Source: a virus
Taxonomy: Duplodnaviria; Heunggongvirae; Uroviricota; Caudoviricetes
Virus record (IMG/VR): IMGVR_UViG_2711768068_000019
Strand: one strand, 5' to 3'
Length of the DNA stretch: 33,324 bases
The notes under the pieces were generated by a model. It had not been told where the DNA came from. It ran no database searches and worked only from the letters and a program-made list of their open reading frames with translations. Position numbers and translations under genes: made by a program. How positions within the stretch are numbered: position 1 is the stretch's first letter; each line of letters begins with the position of its first letter. Positions 8,567-32,742 of this stretch are shown in pieces.

Positions 8567-9160
8567 TCAATTATGTAAATCTTTTGTTTTATGTTCTTTA
8601 GCGTGTTGTGATAATAAATAGCTATAGCGTTTAAGCAAAATATTAGAAAGATTAAGCTCATTCATGAAGTGTTCTTCTAATAAGTAACCATCAATATCAA
8701 CTTTAATATCATTACCACTTTTCATCTTCTGTAACGTAGATTTTACACGCTCCAGCAGGATGCTTTGCTCATGGTAATAGTCCATAAGAAGAGTAACATC
8801 CTCTTTATCAAGCTTACTTAATTCGCCGAAGTAGGATTTAAACACTTTATCAGTCTGGTTTAATGCAATCTGTAAGCGAGGTCCCCCTAATGATTTGACA
8901 TTAATGGCAAAAGGCTCGCCAACAAAATGCTCCGAATTTTCGTCAAAGCCAATATGTCTCGTTTTATCAAGAAAAGTGAGAGCGCGATGGTTATTAGCGA
9001 TTTCATATGCAAACATTGTTCTGATACTGTCTCTCTCAGCCTCCATGTTTATATCATCACGATGATTTGTATAAAATATATTTCCAACAAAGAGAACCAT
9101 AGCAAGAATCACTGAACTTGCCTCCCAGTTAATATTTTTTAATCGTCGCTTAGTAAACAT
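8567..9160 (-). CDS. Hypothetical membrane-anchored protein, AT-rich moron at the P2 Z/fun position
   Basis: 197-aa ORF with ATG start and a strong Shine-Dalgarno (AAGGTG, 4-nt spacer). One N-terminal hydrophobic helix (SSVILAMVLFVGNIFYT) followed by a soluble domain. Markedly lower GC than the flanking G and FI genes. No family recognised. Confidence 0.65.
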   Translation of the reverse strand: MFTKRRLKNINWEASSVILAMVLFVGNIFYTNHRDDINMEAERDSIRTMFAYEIANNHRALTFLDKTRHIGFDENSEHFVGEPFAINVKSLGGPRLQIALNQTDKVFKSYFGELSKLDKEDVTLLMDYYHEQSILLERVKSTLQKMKSGNDIKVDIDGYLLEEHFMNELNLSNILLKRYSYLLSQHAKEHKTKDLHN

Positions 9161-9381: not shown

Positions 9382-9909
9382 TTATTGCGGCATTTCCGGC
9401 CATTCAGGATTTGCAGGATCCACACGGCTGATCAGAACGCTGTAGCGTTCCCATGACTCCAGTCGTGCGCATTCCTCATCCGTCGCCATATTCAGCCTGA
9501 CAGCGCGTTCCAGTGGCTGAATAACGCTTTCCGCTTCGGAAAGTAACGCGGCCTTTTGTGATTCTGCCTGTTGTTGCTGTTCATCTGCCGTATAAATCCG
9601 TTTAACCACAGCACCATCCTTAAACATCCATTTACCTGAGTCGTCAGCACGTCGGTTGGAGGTAATATCAGGAACCTCAACAACGCTAAAACCTTCAGGA
9701 TTAAGCGTTGAAGCATCTCTGGTGATAGCGACAATAATATTATTTTCATCGTAAACAATCTTTATTGTGTCTGACTGAAAGTTCTTCACTTCCTCATACC
9801 AGTTTTTCCCGTCTTCAGTGTAAAGCCAGATGACTCCATGCTTCTTTGTTAACTCATACTGTTCCAGTGTTTTAGCGTTACCCGCTTTTATGTTCTTTAA
9901 GTGCATCAT
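9382..9909 (-). CDS. G: Tail fiber assembly protein G
   Basis: 175-aa ORF immediately downstream of the tail fiber gene H; recognised as a P2 gpG-type tail fiber assembly protein. Confidence 0.85.
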
Positions 9910-9910
9910 A

Positions 9911-12166
9911 TTAAACGCTCGCTACATTATACCATGTGCCATTTATATACTTTTGAACGGGTCTGTAATAAACACCCGCAATATTATCGGCGGAGTTGGA
10001 ACCTGTATCCTGAACATTTATACCAGACAATACATGACCTGAAGGGCACTGGAAGTTCCATGTTTGCCAGTTGTTCACACCATAATATTGCTGTGAGCCA
10101 AGCCGAACATCTTTCACATATCTGGAATCAATGTTACCCCAGCTGCTTGGTTGTATCTGACCGTTTACAGCAAATGTCACCGAGTTATCTGTATTTCGCT
10201 GACTATAGAAATGCCAGCCTGAATCATCACCAAGCTCTGCAACAGTTGGTCTTGACGAATTTCCCCACAAGTTAAATGATGCATTATGGGCAGCGGTATT
10301 TGCACTTGAAAGTGTGAATAACTTACTTTCCCCAGCTTGAATACCCTTTAATGATATTGCTGAGCCATTTCTAAAGCGGAATACATGCACACCATTAGCA
10401 TAAGCATCCAGCACCCCATCACCATTTTGTTTAAACCCAGTATCGTTATCTCCTAAAACTATTGAATTCCCCCCCAGGGCATTAGCCGTTCCAATCCCCA
10501 GATTTCCGCTAAAAATGGCATTAATACCGAATATTGAGTGAGAACAATAAAACCCTCGCCCATTGTTAAAATCCAGAATGGCTTGTGCTTTCGTGCTTTC
10601 TGTCGCGGGATTAGTTGCTCCCCACTTATATGTTGTTTGACCGACGGTATAATCCTGAGTTGGAACAATAACCGTTAGCCCTTCTTCGGCAAAAACTCGC
10701 ACAGGAAAAGCCCTGCCTTCAACGTAAAAAACGCTGCATACATCATCTTCTTTCAGGCTTGTTACAATGGAATGGATTGCGCGCTCATTAGTCTGATATG
10801 TCGAAAAATAACCTGCTGCATATGAACCACGATCAGTCCAACCTCCGGGCATTACCATTCCATTAAATTCGCAGTTATTCATTGCGTAATCACCACCGGC
10901 AGATGTGGTTGTAATAACCACTCTGGAAGCCAGTTCGCCAGTGCTACCAGTGGAACGCCGGAAAATAACTGGATACCACTTTCCACCAACAGCATTAGAC
11001 GGCGCGTTAAATACGTACTGCCGCATTCCTTTTTTCTTATCCACCTCGCCTTTGCTGTAAACATTAATGTTACTCAGGAAGCGATCTTTATCAGGAATAT
11101 CCGCGCCGTTCTGATTTTTCTGCAATGCGCCAGAAGCCTGATTTACCGTTTCCTGCAAACCGAGATATTCGATAACGGCGGCAACGGTCGATTTAGCCAG
11201 AATATCCCGCCCGACTTTTGTCAGGGTTGCCAGGCTGGCAACATCATTCCCCGTAAAATACGGAAACCTGTCTGCCGCAGTAGCAAGCCCCGCCAGCGCC
11301 GTCAGGGTAGCATCTTTCGGTTGCTTACCCGCAAGCGCGTTAGTCATGGTGGTCGCAAAATTCGGGTCGTTGCCCAGCGCCGCCGCCAGCTCGTTCAGCG
11401 TGTTCAGTGCGTCAGGTGACGAATCTACAAGTGCGGCAATCGCGGCCATAACGAAAGCCGTGCTTGCGATTTGGGTATTATTCGTTCCCTGTCGTGCAGT
11501 TGGTGTTGTTGGCGTTCCGGTCAGTGCCGGGCTGTTTAATGGCGCTTTCTTGTTCGTTTCATCCATTACCGTCTTAACGGCTTTTGGCGTTGCGGCCAGC
11601 ATTTCAGACGTGCTGTTGGTCGCACTGCTTAACTGAGTAAAACCTTTTGCGGTCAGCGAGGCGTCCGGGTGACGTCGTGACTGTTCGTGCTCTGCAATTT
11701 TGTCATCAACGTAATCCTGCGTCGCCATCACCGTTGTGGTGTCAATGGTCAGCTCCACTGAGGCCACACTGCTGACGATGATGACCATGCGGCAGGTCTG
11801 CGAACGCCCTGAACCTTCGGCAAGAGCTGGCTTATAACTTTCGGCCATGTTCGCCACGGCAATTAACGTTCCCGCATCATCGTACAGGCCAAGCTCACGC
11901 ATCCAGAAACCGCCCACCTCCGGCGGAATAACCAGCTCTGCGATAATATAATTACTGTTTCGTTTGTCCTGACTGATTTTGTTCAGCGCATGTCGCCAGA
12001 CTTCGTGGATAAGCCCGGTCTGTCCGGCATCCGGGACAGGCAATTTACCACCGCCATCCCCGACGGCCATCGTGGTAATGTTGACCTTCCGCCCTCCCGG
12101 TGCGGTTGCCGCTGCCAGCTTTGCTGCACCGGCAGTGGTGATAACGGTTTTGAATTTTGTGCTCAT
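9911..12166 (-). CDS. H: Tail fiber protein H (mosaic; C-terminal receptor-binding region differs in composition)
   Basis: 751-aa ORF; the N-terminal part is recognised as P2 gpH. The C-terminal roughly 40% (about 9911..10900) is lower in GC and rich in Gly/Asn/Ser/Trp/Tyr. It is longer than the roughly 669 aa I recall for P2 H. Confidence 0.85.
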
Positions 12167-12176
12167 TATTCCTCAC

Positions 12177-12707
12177 TTATCCGGGGTAAACCGTAATTAC
12201 ATCGCCGTCGTAAGCCACACCACCGGCGAACAGGTAGCCGGGAATGTCCCGGGTAATGTTCAGGCCAATAAGGTGGCGGCTTGCAGGTTTGGCATCAGCA
12301 ATCAGCCGTTCCATTTCCTGATACATTGCCTCTGTGATGCCGCTTTCCAGCACACCGATATCAAGGCGAAAGGTGCCGGGCGGGTCGTTTGTCTCCCACC
12401 ATTCCTTTACGTTAATGAGATAGCCGAGCGGCTCCACCACACGCCGGATTGCGCCTATAGTGCCTTTATGACAGTGGATGAAATAGGCATCGCGAATAAC
12501 GGCGCGTTTTGTCGCTTCCGGCCACTTTTCATCCCACCTGTCGACCGAAAACGCCCATGCCAGCCACGGCAGCAAATTTGCCGGGCAAGTGTCCGGGTTC
12601 CACAGCTCACGAATCCTGACCGGCGTTTTTTCAATTTCCGCACAGGCTTTTGCGGCAGCAACTTCAAGCGGTGATGAGCCGGTCGGCAGCAGTCGCGAAT
12701 CACTCAT
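12177..12707 (-). CDS. I: Baseplate assembly protein I
   Basis: 176-aa ORF, ATG start, recognised as P2 gpI; synteny J-I-H. Confidence 0.9.
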   Translation of the reverse strand: MSDSRLLPTGSSPLEVAAAKACAEIEKTPVRIRELWNPDTCPANLLPWLAWAFSVDRWDEKWPEATKRAVIRDAYFIHCHKGTIGAIRRVVEPLGYLINVKEWWETNDPPGTFRLDIGVLESGITEAMYQEMERLIADAKPASRHLIGLNITRDIPGYLFAGGVAYDGDVITVYPG

Positions 12708-24168: not shown

Positions 24169-24708
24169 TCAATCATCATGATGAGAGAACCTAGCATTTA
24201 CTATTCTTGAGTGAAGATTGTTTGCAAATGATAAGTTGCTTAAAATAACACTAAACACACACTTTATTTGTAACCAGCACATAAAATAAACAAAGGTGAT
24301 TCCAATCATTCTAATAAGATCAGAATACACCACTGAACTCGATAGCACAGAGCCTATTGATTTAAACAGATAAACAAACAAAATCGAAAGCATTACTACT
24401 GCTGAAGTAATTACAACGTAAATTAGCTTTTCAATTCGAGGTGCATCTTTCGTATTCTTTATGTAATCAACATCATCATTGACAATGCTTGCAATTGCAT
24501 TCGGATATAAAAAACCAATCCATAATCCAACTATGGTAAAAATTGCAGCAGATATGTTTTGCAAAACACCCAGTATATCTTTTATATCACTATAGTTAAC
24601 ATAAGCTTTCAGCCAATAGGAGGCCACAGCAATTAGAAATAGAATTAACAAATTCCATTTCCATTGTATTATCAATGCCTTTAAATCCTTACTTGTTTGA
24701 GGTGACAT
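24169..24708 (-). CDS. Hypothetical small integral membrane protein (4 predicted transmembrane helices), second gene of an AT-rich cargo operon
   Basis: 179-aa ORF. Its ATG directly follows the upstream TAA (TAAATG) and is preceded by GGAGG within the upstream gene's 3' end. Four hydrophobic stretches of about 17-23 residues. About 30% GC by eye. Confidence 0.7.
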   Translation of the reverse strand: MSPQTSKDLKALIIQWKWNLLILFLIAVASYWLKAYVNYSDIKDILGVLQNISAAIFTIVGLWIGFLYPNAIASIVNDDVDYIKNTKDAPRIEKLIYVVITSAVVMLSILFVYLFKSIGSVLSSSVVYSDLIRMIGITFVYFMCWLQIKCVFSVILSNLSFANNLHSRIVNARFSHHDD

Positions 24709-25836
24709 TTATGCCTCCGCCGTTTTTAAAGATTTTTCTTCCACCTCTTCATTATAAAGGATTGTTTGGAGTAAATCATCACGAACAGCCTTTATTTCAT
24801 GAAGGAGTTTTTCTGGAGAGAAATGCTCATCTCCGGTAGAATCGCTGACAATTAATGCAGTTCTCGCCATATATTTTTTTAACCATAATGGGCGAGATGA
24901 ATCTTTAAGAACAAAGCCAACATCAACCCAGTCAACATCATCTACATTTCTATCCAATAGTTGTTTTATCTCCTCTTCCGAAGGAGCACCATCTACTCGA
25001 ACCTCAATTTTTTTAGGTTTTGTAAACTTGGTTTGTTCTGTTCCCAAGAAATCCGATAGTACATTACTCACCAGACGTAATAACGGTTGCCGGGTATCCT
25101 CAACTTTTGCGACCGTAGTATCACGAATAATTGTCTGAACAATTTTATCTCGTACATCAAGAATATTCGTCCCTGGTTTATTAACCTTCGTCACTTCAGC
25201 CTTAAATTTAAAAACGCAATTACACTTGCGTCCATTTTCATCTACATGCTTGAAAATTGTTTTAGAAATAAGAATGTCATCTTCCGAACATGAAGAACGA
25301 GCTCTAGTAAATGAGGTAGTATCCTTTTCCCTACCAAAATCACCGTGATTTACTACAAAATTAAAAATATAATTGCTTAACCTCGGTGTATCTGCACCTG
25401 AATGAGGAAATATAATGGATGCAATCTTGTTATATTCAGGAATTATCCAATAATAACATGGCTCAACCCAAATATAGTCTTTTCCATTCGTTTCTGTCTT
25501 TACTGTATCATTTTCTGTAGCACCAACAGGTGCGTTTTTTTTAACAGCGTGCAAACGTCCCTTCGCGGAACCTAATGCGCGATACATTACCATCACCCGA
25601 TCTTTTGTATCGGGATCGACAGCCACTCCTCGTGAGTAAGTTCTGGCTCTTAGCGGATGAGTTCCCGTATCCCACGGAATTGACTCCTCAACGCTTTTGT
25701 CATCAAGCCAAGCCTGCAACGCGTCAAAGATCTCATCAAGTGTTCCGAATTTATGCTCTAATTCTTCTGCGTTTTTCTTCAGTCTGTAAAAACCACAAGC
25801 CTTGATATCAAAGAACGTAACGATTCCAGTTTCCAT
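24709..25836 (-). CDS. Hypothetical protein (375 aa), first gene of an AT-rich cargo operon at the P2 tin/old position
   Basis: ORF with the ATG at 25834-25836 (METGIVTFFDIKACGFYRLKK...); the track ORF begins 21 codons upstream at a TTG. No transmembrane segment and no Walker A motif. Low GC. No family recognised. Confidence 0.7.
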   Translation of the reverse strand: METGIVTFFDIKACGFYRLKKNAEELEHKFGTLDEIFDALQAWLDDKSVEESIPWDTGTHPLRARTYSRGVAVDPDTKDRVMVMYRALGSAKGRLHAVKKNAPVGATENDTVKTETNGKDYIWVEPCYYWIIPEYNKIASIIFPHSGADTPRLSNYIFNFVVNHGDFGREKDTTSFTRARSSCSEDDILISKTIFKHVDENGRKCNCVFKFKAEVTKVNKPGTNILDVRDKIVQTIIRDTTVAKVEDTRQPLLRLVSNVLSDFLGTEQTKFTKPKKIEVRVDGAPSEEEIKQLLDRNVDDVDWVDVGFVLKDSSRPLWLKKYMARTALIVSDSTGDEHFSPEKLLHEIKAVRDDLLQTILYNEEVEEKSLKTAEA

Positions 25837-25993
25837 CACTTTCCCTACGAAGCGGTAAAAAATCCCCAGAACAATAAGGGATCTATGCAAAAGGTTCAAT
25901 GCTCAAGATTATCACCTAGTATGCTAACGCCTCCGCAGATGAGTTGTTCACCCCGCCAACCCTGAAAACAAGTTTCACGACTGGCGGCGCTCT

Positions 25994-26200
25994 CTATCGT
26001 CTGCGTGGTGGTGGCGCAACTCTGGACTGACCGATATAGTTAAACCGCCCGTAATTATCCCGGACTATTTCGGCACACCCGACTAGCTCATCGGGCGTCA
26101 GATTTTCGTTGACCATAATCTGCTGTAGACGGTGAACAATGGCCATCAGCTTGATATTTTTAGTTTTATGGTGCGGTATCTCGCCTGGTATTCTGTGCAT
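25994..26200 (-). CDS. Hypothetical small protein (about 68 aa)
   Basis: ATG at 26198-26200 overlaps the stop of the upstream gene by one base (TAATG), suggesting translational coupling; the track ORF begins at a GTG 4 codons upstream. No homolog recognised. Confidence 0.35.
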   Translation of the reverse strand: MHRIPGEIPHHKTKNIKLMAIVHRLQQIMVNENLTPDELVGCAEIVRDNYGRFNYIGQSRVAPPPRRR

Positions 26201-26655
26201 TATCCAAGCCACCCATTTTGCTTTGCACGCTCCACCTGTTCATCTGAATAGTTCCATGCTCCATCCGTGGCAACCATTGCCCCGCCAGACATCCCCGTCT
26301 CTGGTTCATACATAACAGCAAGGCCGAGCTGATGCATAATTTCATGATTAATTCTGAATACCAGACCACGCTCACTAAGTTCTTTCCAGTTCACAATCTC
26401 ATATGCGCCTGTATTAAGCAGCTCAATACTTAGCAAGACATAATCTACCAGCCAGTCTGACAGGTCAGTAACATCTGTTATCCGGGCTTCAACCTTTCGC
26501 CCCGTGTACACACCCTGCACCCATTCATGCAAAATCAACGTGTCCCCGCGCTCATAATTACGGTCATTTTTCCGAAACTCTGCGCGTTTCTTTCCTTCCA
26601 GCACAAGGTCGAAATATTTTGCGTGCAGCTTTACCTCGTGAATTTTTGCCATCAT
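26200..26655 (-). CDS. ASCH/PUA-like (DUF3850-like) domain protein with a C-terminal extension containing an HExxH motif
   Basis: 151-aa product from the ATG overlapping the A stop (ATGA), preceded by GGAG. The N-terminus (MAKIHEVKLHAKYFDLVLEGKKRAEFRKNDRNYERGDTLILHEW...) resembles ASCH/DUF3850 proteins as I recall them. The C-terminal region contains HEIMH. Confidence 0.7.
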   Translation of the reverse strand: MMAKIHEVKLHAKYFDLVLEGKKRAEFRKNDRNYERGDTLILHEWVQGVYTGRKVEARITDVTDLSDWLVDYVLLSIELLNTGAYEIVNWKELSERGLVFRINHEIMHQLGLAVMYEPETGMSGGAMVATDGAWNYSDEQVERAKQNGWLG

Positions 26656-28937
26656 GTCCACTCCATTACTGTTGAGAATCCCGGCCACTCATCAGCGACC
26701 GGATACGTGAACTTTTTCCCGTCATAATTTACGGTTGCCCCACGCGCCAGCGCCTCAAGCTCCCATCGCTGCGGCCTGATACCGTTCTGAGCAAGGTCAA
26801 CGCGGATACGGGTAATTTGCATTCGTTCCGACCGGGTCATTCTGGCCGATGGCGCTATTTCATGCGGTTTTAACGGGCTTCCGTTTCTTTGCTGACGACT
26901 TGGCGTTCTCCGACCGTGTTTTAATGCACCTCTGAGCGCCCTCACGACCTCCGGGTCACTCCATTCGATAACACCGTCATCAACCAGATTAAGCACTGCT
27001 GCGGCGTGCTCAGAAGGTGTGGGAGCCGGTAACGAAGTATCACCGCCGGTAAGCTTTCCACAGTTATTGACAGGACTCCGAGGCGCGGCGATGCCGCTTT
27101 TTAAAGTCAAAGGCTCAACGACCGGAACTTTCGGCACAATGCGCCAGTCCGTGGTTCTGGTGATATGAATATGACGCGCGCCGAGATGCGGTGCGTAAAT
27201 GCCGACCACTCTCTCGACTTCTTCCTCGTACTCGTTAACGTCATCCGACGGGCTACGGGCGACTCTGACAGTCTGACAATCGCGCGGAACATTTGCCCCA
27301 CCCTGCGCGCTGATATACAACGCAAAATCACCACTGTCTGCGGCGGCGCGTGCAGCCTCGACGCGCTCGTCAAACTCATCAGCAATGCTGACGCCGCGAG
27401 GCAATTTGCGTAATTCACGGTAAGCCCCCATTGTCGGCAGACCAACCGTTTTAAATTGCGGAATGCGCCACGTTGACGCCCATGCGGTAACAGCCGCTGC
27501 AGTGTCTTTCAGCGGCCTGCCGGTGTCGTTATCGAGCTGACCATCCAGTGCATAGCCGTCGATGTTTTTTGAAATGTATTTCGCGATATATCCCGCAGCA
27601 CCGCCCCGGTTAAGGTGTTTTGCCTGAAAACGGTTTCGCGCGGCTCCTCTTTCGTCACCATCCTCTTTGAGCGCATAGCGACGCATGATTTCGATAATCT
27701 GGTTACGCTGGCGTGGATTACAAAAAAGCATCATATGCCAGTGCGGCGTTCCGTCGTGGTGTGGCTCGACGACTCGCAAACCGTAGACCTGTAAATCATT
27801 ATCCTTGAATGCCGTGCGCATCAGGCTCCAGATACGGCAGAGATAACGCTGCGCATCCTTTGGATTAAATGCCTCATCGTTCCAGCCGTGATTAAGCTGC
27901 ACGGTTTTACTTTCGCCTTTTCCGACCTGACGTGTCGGGTGATACTTTGACGGCGCGGTCAGCGTGATAAACATCCCCACATCACCCTCTGCAGCGGCGT
28001 AACGCTCAATACCGGCAATGGTGTTCATCAGCTCCATCCGGCGAATTTCAGGATTAGAAATACTGCCCATCACCTTACTGATAAGGTCGATGCGCTCGCC
28101 GGTTTCCCTGTTTTCGAGGTCACACGATTTAAGAAATTCCAGATTTGCCTGGCGGCGCGCACGCACATCACGAATGGCGTGTTTACTGGCATAAGGAGAA
28201 CGGTCTTTATTGACCTCCCCGACAGCTATCAGTAACGCCTCATGCCAGCGCATACGCTGTCCTTTAAGCTGATGAGTCCACCACTCATCGTTAAACAGGC
28301 GGGCAATGGCAGAATATGCCTGCCTCGTGGTCATCTGTCCTTTACGGTATTTTTTCCAGTAGAGAGGGGAAATATTGAAAGCACGTGCAGCGCCAGCAAC
28401 ATGACCATAGAGGTGAGCCTGCGCCTTATCCGTAAACAGCGATTCTTTTTCGCCATGCGCATCCACCCAGGCATCGCAGAGTTCCTCATACATCATGAAA
28501 AGCTGCGATGAGATACGGGCGGCAAACTTTTTCAGCTCCTTGTCATTCATTCCAGGCAGGCGCGCATAGTGGTCACGCTCTGCCAGAAACAGCAACGACG
28601 CGTCGGTGTTCATTTCATGGCGCTGATTCACACGCTCAATACGCGGCCATAAACGACGCTGAAAAGTGGATGTGAGGAAATAAAACCCGTGTACCGGACT
28701 TTTATTGCGCCGGATGTAGTCATAGCGTGAAGTAAACAGCGAGCGCAAAAAGTAAGGCAGGCGGTTAATCGTGGATAAAACACCTTGCACCTGACGCATC
28801 TCGTCACGTGTAAGAGGTCTTTCTCGCCCAACGGCCTCGCGTGGCGCGTTCCATGCATAAGCACCGGTAAACGTCTCACCGGTGCCTGCGGCAAATGCTG
28901 ACGGAGGGACAAAACGCCCGGAGGCTTTAACGGCCAT
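26652..28937 (-). CDS. A: Replication initiation protein A (rolling-circle HUH endonuclease)
   Basis: 761-aa product from the ATG at 28935-28937 (MAVKASGRFVPPSAF...); the track ORF begins at a TTG 14 codons upstream. Contains a HUH-type motif (PHWHMMLF) and a candidate catalytic Tyr region (YIAKYISKN). Confidence 0.9.
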   Translation of the reverse strand: MAVKASGRFVPPSAFAAGTGETFTGAYAWNAPREAVGRERPLTRDEMRQVQGVLSTINRLPYFLRSLFTSRYDYIRRNKSPVHGFYFLTSTFQRRLWPRIERVNQRHEMNTDASLLFLAERDHYARLPGMNDKELKKFAARISSQLFMMYEELCDAWVDAHGEKESLFTDKAQAHLYGHVAGAARAFNISPLYWKKYRKGQMTTRQAYSAIARLFNDEWWTHQLKGQRMRWHEALLIAVGEVNKDRSPYASKHAIRDVRARRQANLEFLKSCDLENRETGERIDLISKVMGSISNPEIRRMELMNTIAGIERYAAAEGDVGMFITLTAPSKYHPTRQVGKGESKTVQLNHGWNDEAFNPKDAQRYLCRIWSLMRTAFKDNDLQVYGLRVVEPHHDGTPHWHMMLFCNPRQRNQIIEIMRRYALKEDGDERGAARNRFQAKHLNRGGAAGYIAKYISKNIDGYALDGQLDNDTGRPLKDTAAAVTAWASTWRIPQFKTVGLPTMGAYRELRKLPRGVSIADEFDERVEAARAAADSGDFALYISAQGGANVPRDCQTVRVARSPSDDVNEYEEEVERVVGIYAPHLGARHIHITRTTDWRIVPKVPVVEPLTLKSGIAAPRSPVNNCGKLTGGDTSLPAPTPSEHAAAVLNLVDDGVIEWSDPEVVRALRGALKHGRRTPSRQQRNGSPLKPHEIAPSARMTRSERMQITRIRVDLAQNGIRPQRWELEALARGATVNYDGKKFTYPVADEWPGFSTVMEWT

Positions 28938-31728: not shown

Positions 31729-32742
31729 ATGGCAATCAAAAAACTCGATGATGGTCGATATGAAGTGGACATCCGCCCTACTGGACGTAATGGAAAACGC
31801 ATCCGTAGGAAGTTTGATAAGAAAAGCGAAGCTGTCGCTTTCGAGAAATACACGTTGTACAACCACCACAATAAAGAATGGCTATCAAAACCAACAGACA
31901 AGCGACGTCTGTCGGAGCTGACACAGATCTGGTGGGATTTAAAGGGTAAACACGAAGAGCATGGGAAATCTAATCTTGGAAAAATTGAAATCTTCACAAA
32001 AATAACGAATGACCCATGCGCATTTCAAATTACGAAATCGCTTATCAGCCAGTACTGCGCCACCCGAAGAAGTCAGGGTATTAAACCTTCGAGTATCAAT
32101 CGTGATTTAACATGTATTAGCGGCATGTTTACAGCCCTGATTGAAGCGGAGTTATTCTTTGGTGAGCACCCTATCAGAGGGACAAAAAGGCTTAAGGAGG
32201 AAAAACCAGACACAGGCTATCTCACGCAGGAAGAAATTGCCTTACTGCTTGCTGCTCTTGACGGCGACAACAAAAAGATTGCGATTCTTTGCCTGAGTAC
32301 TGGAGCACGTTGGGGAGAAGCAGCTCGTTTGAAAGCAGAAAATATCATCCATAACCGCGTCACGTTTGTTAAAACGAAAACAAACAAACCACGCACCGTC
32401 CCGATCTCAGAGGCTGTTGCCAAAATGATCGCGGATAACAAACGAGGTTTTTTATTCCCTGATGCTGATTACCCTCGCTTCAGACGAACAATGAAAGCAA
32501 TAAAACCGGATTTGCCAATGGGGCAAGCTACACATGCACTAAGGCACAGCTTTGCCACTCATTTCATGATTAATGGAGGAAGTATTATCACGCTACAACG
32601 GATACTAGGTCACACGCGGATTGAGCAAACTATGGTTTACGCTCATTTTGCGCCAGAGTACCTTCAGGACGCCATTTCTCTTAATCCGCTAAGAGGTGGT
32701 ACTGAGGTCGAGAGTGTCCACACAGTGTCCACAGTAGAGTAA
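31729..32742 (+). CDS. int: Tyrosine integrase
   Basis: 337-aa ORF preceded by GGAGG; the C-terminal region has the conserved R...HxxR...Y catalytic residues (ARWGEAARL, HALRHSFAT, VYAHF). Adjacent to the att core. Confidence 0.9.
   Translation: MAIKKLDDGRYEVDIRPTGRNGKRIRRKFDKKSEAVAFEKYTLYNHHNKEWLSKPTDKRRLSELTQIWWDLKGKHEEHGKSNLGKIEIFTKITNDPCAFQITKSLISQYCATRRSQGIKPSSINRDLTCISGMFTALIEAELFFGEHPIRGTKRLKEEKPDTGYLTQEEIALLLAALDGDNKKIAILCLSTGARWGEAARLKAENIIHNRVTFVKTKTNKPRTVPISEAVAKMIADNKRGFLFPDADYPRFRRTMKAIKPDLPMGQATHALRHSFATHFMINGGSIITLQRILGHTRIEQTMVYAHFAPEYLQDAISLNPLRGGTEVESVHTVSTVE

What the first reader, a model, noticed from the sequence alone, without database searches (positions are those of the whole stretch)
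9911..10900. Tail fiber H has a compositionally distinct C-terminal receptor-binding module
The 5' roughly 60% of H is GC-rich like the rest of the tail genes. The 3' roughly 1 kb, together with the adjacent G gene, is visibly lower in GC. The product is 751 aa, longer than the P2 H I recall. This fits modular exchange of the receptor-binding domain plus its chaperone, which would give this prophage a host range different from canonical P2.
Basis: partly seen in the sequence, partly recalled or inferred. Interest (0 to 1): 0.4.

Follow-up and report, generated by a model that had tools for sequence, protein, structure and literature searches.

The report
Mosaic P2 tail fibre, swapped tip
The tail-fibre gene of this P2-like E. 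coli prophage is a patchwork whose low-GC outer half is a host-recognition cassette shared with Mu-like phages and joined at a relic invertase site, which is the ordinary, long-known way these phages trade host range.

Summary
H (9911-12166, minus strand, 751 aa) has an abrupt GC step, 0.556 to 0.435 (GC3 0.585 to 0.363), and G is also low (0.451). The step lies at 11176, not about 10900.

It does not distinguish this prophage from P2. Canonical P2 H has the same step at the homologous codon, as did 40 of 40 P2-type H genes surveyed.

The step coincides with a 26-bp sequence (11175-11150) matching the Mu G-segment crossover site gix at 22 of 26 positions. Upstream, H is P2 (about 97% aa, minus one 44-aa repeat). 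Downstream, H aa 332-751 is 97.4% identical to the variable part of the S fibre in a Mu-like E. coli prophage's invertible segment.

Relative to P2, the replaced block is the variable half of H plus only the first 22-44 codons of G. The rest of G is P2's own (97-100% nt).

The window has one site, no invertase and no alternative cassette, so this is a fixed cassette, not a switch.

The variable part carries an extra ~180-aa beta-sandwich domain with no Pfam family or solved homologue. A tip patch shares 3 of 30 residues with P2.

A changed host range is plausible but untested. This is a known kind of feature, of low interest.

The parts
9911..12166 (-). Gene H, tail fibre, 751 aa, intact ORF
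   Evidence: ORF list. Pfam PF12571 at aa 1-151 (2.6e-58) and PF03406 at aa 170-210 (2.7e-20). It lies between P2-type I (12177..12707, PF09684) and G.
11176..12166 (-). Constant part of H (aa 1-330): baseplate-attachment collar, one Phage_fiber_2 repeat and shaft. P2 lineage, GC 0.556.
   Evidence: 95-96% nt identity to P2. The alignment to P2 H 1-382 is near-identical except that one 44-aa repeat unit is missing. GC.
11150..11175 (-). Relic Din-invertase crossover site (gix-like), TTATCGAATATC TC GGTTTGCAGGAA, encoding ..IEYLGLQE... It coincides with the GC step and with the end of P2 homology.
   Evidence: 22 of 26 positions match TTATCCAAAACCTCGGTTTACAGGAA, read at both annotated G-segment boundaries of Mu NC_000929. 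It is the only such site in the window, and there is no Gin homologue.
11072..11149 (-). Linker of the variable part (aa 340-365, [28 protein letters not shown]), of the type that follows gix on the Mu S' (G-minus) side
   Evidence: Read from the DNA next to Mu gixR and next to both sites of the Mu-like prophage L007. PDB 8ju3 (Mu S/S' chimera) matches aa 331-368. Aa 329-367 are 74% identical to Mu S'.
10526..11071 (-). Extra internal domain (aa 366-547), predicted beta-sandwich, absent from P2 H. It is an uncharacterised module shared by fibres of many phage families.
10127..10525 (-). Distal shaft (aa 548-680): a segment shared with T-even gp37 (aa ~553-611) and a gp34-like segment (aa ~621-676). 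Homologous to P2 H 473-600.
   Evidence: tblastn to gp37 of ime09 and SV76 gives 63-64% identity. PF21446 is sub-threshold, and PDB 4uxe and 5nxf match aa 621-675. Block identities to P2 range from 14/30 to 26/30.
9914..10126 (-). Fibre tip (aa 681-751), homologous to the C-terminal domain of Mu S. It contains a hypervariable patch (aa ~689-733, window 9968-10102) and the conserved end [17 protein letters not shown].
   Evidence: PDB 5yvq (Mu S) aligns to aa 590-750, and 9cuy (phiTE short tail fibre) to aa 681-748. Aa 691-720 share 3 of 30 residues with P2, while the flanks share 17-26 of 30. The last 82 aa are 91.5% identical to the unexpressed cassette gp52 of Shigella phage SfMu.
9382..9909 (-). 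Gene G, tail fibre assembly protein (Tfa, U type), 175 aa. It is internally mosaic: nt 1-66 (9844-9909) follow the Mu-like cassette, nt 67-132 (9778-9843) diverge from all sequences sampled, and nt 133-528 (9382-9777) are of P2 lineage.
   Evidence: PF02413 at 1.9e-36. 92% aa identity to P2 G, 91% to the Mu-like U, 88% to Mu U, 56% to U'. Block identities. dS is 0.16 to P2 G and 0.56 to the Mu-like U.

Best explanation
H is a two-part tail-fibre gene.

The 5' 44% (aa 1-330) is the P2-lineage constant part that anchors the fibre to the baseplate. The 3' 56% (aa ~332-751) is a variable host-recognition cassette. The two parts meet at a 26-bp relic of the crossover site used by Gin/Cin/Pin-type invertases.

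The cassette belongs to a low-GC pool (about 0.44-0.45) that circulates among P2-like, Mu-like, lambdoid and P1-like phages. It keeps that composition whatever backbone carries it, which produces the GC step.

Compared with canonical P2, this prophage carries a different cassette. The replaced block runs from the gix-like site to about codon 22-44 of G. Its nearest relative found here is the expressed Sv cassette of a Mu-like E. coli prophage.

The most economical route is a double crossover by homologous recombination. One crossover lay in the roughly 40-bp conserved junction and the other inside the conserved G gene.

The cassette is fixed. There is one site, no invertase and no alternative cassette, so there is no phase variation.

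Functionally (inferred): the trimeric fibre folds from its C-terminus with the help of G. By analogy with Mu Tfa, G docks on the distal tip and may stay there. The hypervariable tip patch, and possibly the extra beta-sandwich domain, would determine which surface structure is bound.

What is shown: the composition, the junction, the homologies, the mosaic boundaries and purifying selection. What is inferred: the recombination route, chaperone docking, and a receptor specificity different from P2.
For: GC step at 11176, LLR 16.1 against a maximum of 7.6 in shuffles.

The site matches Mu gix at 22 of 26 positions, at the annotated G-segment boundaries.

P2 homology ends at 11142, and Mu-like cassette homology starts at 11182 and runs to the G stop at 9382 (1802 nt, 93.6%). 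H aa 332-751 are 97.4% identical to S aa 167-586 of a Mu-like prophage that carries opposed Tfa genes, gin, com and mom.

The same GC pattern appears in other backbones. Mu-like backbone 0.556, Sv 0.437, U 0.445. P2 H steps from 0.560 to 0.429. In 40 of 40 P2-type H genes and 12 of 12 lambdoid Stf genes, GC is higher upstream than downstream of the site. In that sample, one shared upstream sequence type (P2 H and lambdoid Stf together) is joined to at least 11 downstream sequence clusters.

The 3' breakpoint lies inside G.

dN/dS of the variable part against the Mu-like cassette is 0.078. The full H+G allele occurs at 97.9% identity or more in 13 complete E. coli genomes.

The tip is homologous to the Mu S C-terminal domain, PDB 5yvq. 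On Tfa biology, PMC9608196, summarising the Mu work, states that the N-terminal domain binds the distal fibre, the C-terminal domain trimerises, and the protein is retained on the virion.
Against: No experiment on this allele was available, and no phage with a known receptor was found to express this tip. The closest characterised phage, SfMu, carries it only in its unexpressed cassette.

The Mu-like cassette differs from the window at dS 0.146, so it is a relative of the donor pool, not the donor. The direction of transfer is unknown.

A monomer AF2 model of the whole variable part failed (pLDDT 45), so the tip geometry and the G docking surface are taken from Mu by homology only.

G nt 67-132 match none of the sampled sequences well (74-80%), so the 3' breakpoint is only bracketed.
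Confidence: 0.85

Rival explanations
1. The low-GC 3' part of H plus G is a recent foreign acquisition peculiar to this prophage, and the GC difference is the footprint of that event.
For: The GC step is real. The variable part differs from that of P2.
Against: Canonical P2 has the same step at the same codon, as do 40 of 40 P2-type H genes sampled. Three quarters of G is low in GC yet of P2 lineage at 97-100% nt. So low GC marks the cassette pool, not this particular event.
Confidence: 0.08
2. The locus is an active invertible host-range switch of the Mu G / P1 C / e14 P type.
For: There is a gix-like site at the constant/variable junction. Some P2-family phages do have H, site, Tfa, opposed Tfa', inverted site and a Gin homologue in that order (L056 and L103).
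Against: The window has only one site within 8 mismatches, no Gin homologue (best tblastn E 0.06), one Tfa gene and no inverted alternative cassette. The left half-site has 3 mismatches to gix.
Confidence: 0.02
3. The GC step reflects the amino-acid composition of, or selection on, fibre tips rather than a separate evolutionary history.
For: Fibre tips are rich in Asn, Ser, Thr, Gly and Tyr. The low GC persists in every backbone examined.
Against: The drop is larger at third codon positions (0.585 to 0.363) than overall. G, a chaperone of different composition, shares it. The step is abrupt and coincides with a recombination junction and with the homology breakpoints.
Confidence: 0.07
4. H is a non-functional chimera in a decaying prophage.
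For: It is mosaic and lacks one 44-aa repeat unit present in P2.
Against: The ORF is an intact 751 aa. dN/dS is 0.078. The allele is conserved at 97.9% or more in at least 13 complete genomes. The window holds a complete P2-type gene set from D to integrase.
Confidence: 0.03

Closest known systems
Bacteriophage P2 gpH / gpG (Peduovirus P2, NC_001895)
   Same: Same locus (I-H-G-[Z/fun slot]-FI). Same constant part, about 97% aa identical. Same gix-like junction sequence, 23 of 26 to gix in P2. Same GC step, 0.560 to 0.429. Same U-type Tfa, 92% aa identical. The conserved C-terminal end is [12 protein letters not shown].
   Different: One Phage_fiber_2 repeat unit fewer (-44 aa). The variable part is 413 aa against 287 aa. 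It starts with the S'-type linker where P2 has the Mu S-type. It carries an extra ~180-aa beta-sandwich domain. Its tip patch shares 3 of 30 residues with P2. The first 22-44 codons of G are not P2-like.
Mu S/U and S'/U' in the invertible G segment, and Mu-like E. coli prophages (locus L007, GCA_011241335)
   Same: The variable part plus the start of G is the same cassette as the expressed Sv-U of the Mu-like prophage (93.6% nt, 97.4% aa), starting at the crossover site. The tip is homologous to the Mu S C-terminal domain, PDB 5yvq. G is 88% identical to Mu U.
   Different: The constant part and baseplate genes are P2-type, not Mu-type. There is no second site, no gin and no alternative cassette. 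Mu's own Sv is only distantly similar (46% over the last 92 aa) and lacks the middle domain.
Mosaic tail-fibre genes shared across phage families (lambda Stf/Tfa, P1 S, T-even gp37/gp38), as described by Haggard-Ljungquist et al. 1992 and Sandmeier 1994. These two references are recalled from memory and were not retrievable here.
   Same: Short conserved segments alternate with unrelated ones. Pieces of this H match lambdoid Stf, P1-like S, T-even gp37, gp34-like and phi92-like fibres. The fibre travels with a Tfa-type chaperone.
   Different: Nothing in principle. This is another allele. The particular combination (S'-type linker, uncharacterised beta-sandwich domain, SfMu-gp52-type tip) has not been characterised experimentally as far as I could find.

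Membership tests
P2-type tail fibre gpH (Peduoviridae) | N-terminal tail-collar fibre domain (PF12571) that attaches to the baseplate | tested here: met
   PF12571 at aa 1-151, E 2.6e-58. Near-identity to P2 H in the alignment.
P2-type tail fibre gpH (Peduoviridae) | Position in the late operon between baseplate gene I and assembly gene G | tested here: met
   I at 12177..12707 (PF09684), H at 9911..12166, G at 9382..9909 (PF02413), all on the minus strand. Collinear with P2.
P2-type tail fibre gpH (Peduoviridae) | C-terminal tip of the Mu S / P2 H type that needs a Tfa chaperone | tested here: met
   phmmer to PDB 5yvq (Mu S), E 7e-21, aa 590-750. 62% identity to P2 H 473-669. The dependence on the chaperone itself was not testable.
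P2-type tail fibre gpH (Peduoviridae) | Forms a homotrimeric fibre that binds the host surface (LPS for P2) | not testable with these tools
   The monomer AF2 model of aa 331-751 had pLDDT 45. No multimer prediction or binding assay was available.
Tail fibre assembly protein, Caudo_TAP / Mu U type | PF02413 domain, about 175 aa, encoded immediately downstream of the fibre gene | tested here: met
   PF02413 at 1.9e-36. The H stop is at 9911-9913 and the G start at 9909. 88-92% identity to Mu U and P2 G, 56% to U'.
Din-invertase invertible tail-fibre segment (Mu G, P1 C, e14 P, p15B Min) | Crossover site at the constant/variable junction of the fibre gene | tested here: met
   22 of 26 positions match Mu gix at 11175-11150.
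Din-invertase invertible tail-fibre segment (Mu G, P1 C, e14 P, p15B Min) | A second crossover site in inverted orientation | tested here: not met
   No other match with up to 3 mismatches or up to 8 mismatches on either strand of the window.
Din-invertase invertible tail-fibre segment (Mu G, P1 C, e14 P, p15B Min) | Adjacent serine invertase gene (Gin/Cin/Pin/Hin) | tested here: not met
   tblastn of Mu Gin against the window gives a best E of 0.06 over 35 aa.
Din-invertase invertible tail-fibre segment (Mu G, P1 C, e14 P, p15B Min) | Alternative variable cassette and Tfa in the opposite orientation | tested here: not met
   There is a single Tfa ORF. Downstream of G lie orf197 and FI.

The most novel reading that the evidence does not exclude
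The lone gix-like site in H is not an inert relic. It could be a docking point through which invertases supplied in trans by co-resident Mu-like, P1-like or e14-type elements capture or exchange fibre cassettes between unrelated prophages in one cell. That would make the Din invertases a cross-family host-range shuffling system, not only an in-cis switch.
Probability: 0.06. Interest if true: 0.5.

Novelty: new member of a known kind. Interest (0 to 1): 0.2.

Why it matters
The practical value is small. The work gives the exact joints at which nature swaps the host-recognition part of P2-type fibres: the gix-like junction at 11150-11175 and a point inside the first ~130 nt of G. These are natural fusion points for retargeting P2, P4 or tailocin particles.

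It also shows that a GC step in H cannot be used to call a prophage-specific acquisition, because every P2-type H sampled has it.

The extra beta-sandwich domain has no Pfam family and no solved structure, and it recurs inside fibres of many phage families. It is a modest target for structural and glycan-binding work.

Tried and rejected
AF2 on the whole variable part (aa 331-751, 18-sequence alignment) gave pLDDT 45 and was not used for fold searches.

A profile search of the middle domain against PDB sequences gave only chance nanobody hits (E at or above 0.015). Pfam gave nothing above threshold.

The search for homologous proteins with the domain profile returned mostly short fragments and added little diversity.

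My first classification of IMG/VR sites used the 300 nt upstream of each site. It wrongly pooled lambdoid Stf genes with P2 H; L062 proved lambdoid. I redid it using the N-terminal domain of the owner gene.

The active-switch reading was rejected: one site, no invertase. The reading that G was exchanged as a whole was rejected.

The classic P2 H/G paper could not be retrieved, so what I attribute to it is from memory.

The SfMu paper gave no receptor for this tip type, because SfMu expresses its other cassette.

Full report
**Context**

The window holds a complete P2-like prophage of E. coli. A host peptidase U32 gene lies at 1-1362. P2-type D, tape measure, FI/FII, baseplate, head and replication (gpA) genes follow, and an integrase lies at 31729-32742. 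The nearest database matches to H+G are E. coli chromosomes at 99.4%.

The feature is gene H at 9911..12166 on the minus strand, 751 aa. It is flanked by P2-type I (12177..12707) and the tail-fibre assembly gene G (9382..9909).

**Checking the observation**

The compositional break is real and abrupt.

- A single change-point fit places it at nt 990 of H (aa 330, window 11176).
- GC is 0.556 upstream and 0.435 downstream. At third codon positions it is 0.585 and 0.363.
- The likelihood gain is 16.1, against at most 7.6 in 200 codon shuffles.
- G has GC 0.451. The surrounding late genes have 0.55-0.61.
- The protein is 751 aa, against 669 aa for P2 H.

The GC-rich part is 44% of the gene, not 60%. 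The low-GC part runs to 11176, not 10900.

**The step is not special to this prophage**

Canonical P2 H has the same step at the homologous codon: aa 392, GC 0.560 to 0.429.

I scanned IMG/VR for the junction sequence and assigned each site to its owner gene by the N-terminal domain found upstream. This gave 48 sites inside P2-type H genes. In all 40 with enough flank, GC was higher in the 300 nt upstream (mean 0.570) than in the 900 nt downstream (mean 0.446). The same held in 12 of 12 lambdoid Stf genes.

In an earlier pass over the same sample I grouped sites by the 300 nt upstream, which pools P2 H with lambdoid Stf. One upstream sequence type was joined at this same point to at least 11 different downstream sequence clusters.

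**What sits at the step**

The 26 bp at 11175-11150 (minus strand) read TTATCGAATATC TC GGTTTGCAGGAA. I read the two annotated G-segment boundaries of phage Mu (NC_000929). Both are TTATCCAAAACC TC GGTTTACAGGAA, so the window matches at 22 of 26 positions and P2 at 23 of 26.

Upstream of the site the window is identical to P2. Downstream it departs from P2 and follows the sequence found next to gix on the Mu S' side and in Mu-like prophages. P2 homology ends at 11142.

**Origin of the variable part**

A protein search showed that the C-terminal 411 aa occur at 95-100% identity attached to different N-termini. These include 586-aa proteins that lack the P2 collar domain.

The 586-aa proteins are the S fibre of Mu-like prophages in E. 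coli and Salmonella. They are followed by two opposed Tfa genes, a serine invertase, com and mom.

Window 11182..9382 aligns to that prophage's Sv-U cassette over 1802 nt at 93.6%. The alignment starts at the crossover site and ends at the G stop. H aa 332-751 are 97.4% identical to S aa 167-586.

In that Mu-like prophage the backbone GC is 0.556, while Sv is 0.437 and U is 0.445. So the cassette keeps its own composition in either backbone.

dN/dS between the two copies of the variable part is 0.078 (dS 0.146). That indicates functional proteins and an exchange that is not very recent.

**What was exchanged relative to P2**

The constant part is P2's at about 97% aa identity. It lacks one of the two 44-aa Phage_fiber_2 repeat units.

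G was not exchanged as a unit.

- Its first 66 nt follow the Mu-like cassette (95%, against 74% to P2).
- Nt 67-132 match nothing sampled well (74-80%).
- Nt 133-528 are 97-100% identical to P2 G, against 83-95% to the Mu-like U.
- Synonymous divergence agrees: dS is 0.16 to P2 G and 0.56 to the Mu-like U.
- Eleven of the 14 amino-acid differences from P2 G lie in aa 2-46.

The replaced block is therefore about 11149 to 9780-9843: the variable half of H plus the first 22-44 codons of G.

The 3' joint has no recombination site and lies in conserved coding sequence. The 5' joint lies in about 40 bp that are near-identical in all three phages. A double homologous crossover is therefore the simplest route. 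This step is inferred.

**Not a switch**

The window has no second gix-like site within 8 mismatches, no Gin homologue, one Tfa gene and no inverted alternative cassette.

Live versions do exist in the wider P2 family. Loci L056 and L103 show gpI, H, the site, two opposed Tfa genes, an inverted site and a Gin homologue 85% identical to Mu Gin. The window, like P2 itself, is the fixed state.

**Anatomy of the variable part**

- aa 340-365: S'-type linker.
- aa 366-547: a domain absent from P2 H.
- aa 548-680: shaft segments shared with T-even gp37 (63-64%) and resembling gp34.
- aa 681-751: the tip, homologous to the C-terminal domain of Mu S (PDB 5yvq) and to the phiTE short fibre (9cuy).

Against P2 H the last 210 aa are 62% identical overall, but unevenly. 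Blocks of 24-26 matches in 30 flank aa 691-720, which share 3 of 30. The final [15 protein letters not shown] is conserved. That pattern is what one expects of receptor-contact loops held in a conserved scaffold; this is an inference.

The last 82 aa are 91.5% identical to gp52 of Shigella phage SfMu. That is SfMu's unexpressed cassette, so its published O-antigen receptor cannot be transferred to this tip.

**The extra domain**

It occurs as a single internal copy in long fibres of:

- Queuovirinae (JenK1, 64%)
- lambdoid phages (61%)
- a P1-like plasmid-phage (65%)
- T5-like phages (38%)
- Aeromonas T4-like phages (38%)
- Vequintavirus (about 32-40%)

It was found in 317 of 5426 complete E. 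coli genomes and in 134 of 1.84 billion cluster representatives.

It has no Pfam family and no sequence match in the PDB.

Its role is open. It could be a spacer knob or a second binding site.

**Chaperone**

G is a U-type Tfa. According to PMC9608196, which summarises the Mu structure work, the N-terminal domain of Mu Tfa binds the distal fibre, the conserved C-terminal domain trimerises, and the protein stays on the virion.

Co-transfer of the 5' end of G with the tip fits a need to keep that interface matched. This is inference only.

**Comparison with what is known**

The modular, cross-family nature of P2 H/G and its relation to Mu S/U has been textbook knowledge since the early 1990s. 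I recall Haggard-Ljungquist et al. 1992 and Sandmeier 1994 but could not retrieve them.

Engineered swaps of the C-terminal part of P2 H do retarget the phage (PMC9594776).

The present case is another allele of that kind. It is uncharacterised experimentally, and the full allele occurs in 13 complete E. coli genomes at 97.9% identity or more.

**Verdict**

Novelty: a new member of a known kind. Interest is low.

Noticed in passing
window 24169-25899 (minus strand): Two ORFs (179 aa and 396 aa) lie in a GC 0.35-0.39 island between the portal gene and the replication region. They have no Pfam family but match PADLOC candidate defence system PDC-M18 (M18B at 3e-16, M18A at 4e-38). This is probably anti-phage cargo in the P2 old/tin hotspot.
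   Followed up: partly
window 8567-9160 (minus strand): A 197-aa ORF, GC 0.34, occupies the slot between G and FI where P2 carries fun(Z). It belongs to phrog_3829 (unknown function), has no Pfam or PADLOC hit, and has a hydrophobic N-terminal stretch. It is 98% identical in Peduovirus P24E6b and 94% in P2_AC1.
   Followed up: partly
window about 11573-11648 (H aa ~173-198): The constant part of H has one Phage_fiber_2 repeat unit where P2 has two. This is a clean 44-aa deletion between direct repeats.
   Followed up: yes
window 9778-9843 (G nt 67-132): A 66-nt patch of G is only 74-80% identical to P2 G, Mu U and the Mu-like U, while both flanks match one or the other at 95-100%. A third, unsampled parent or local diversification is possible.
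   Followed up: no
loci L056 and L103 (IMG/VR contigs): Divergent P2-family phages carry a complete invertible fibre segment: gpI, H, crossover site, two opposed Tfa genes, inverted site and a Gin homologue 85% identical to Mu Gin. Switchable and fixed versions therefore coexist in the family.
   Followed up: partly
locus L005 1-3140; proteins P0041, P0049, P0052: The same variable module also occurs as N-terminally incomplete 371-422-aa ORFs. One cluster has 314 members. For P0049 the context was read: a Mu-like invertible segment cut by the contig end. The others may be unexpressed cassettes or contig-end fragments; their context was not examined.
   Followed up: partly
window 26200-26688 (minus strand): A 162-aa ORF with ASCH/DUF3850 and DUF7415 domains lies just downstream of the replication gene A homologue, on the same strand. 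It is an accessory gene of unknown role.
   Followed up: no
locus L062 (IMG/VR, lambdoid prophage): A lambdoid side tail fibre (phage_tail_N plus Phage_fiber_2, 991 aa) carries the same junction site, two opposed Tfa genes and an inverted second site. This appears to be an invertible Stf segment in a lambda-like phage.
   Followed up: partly
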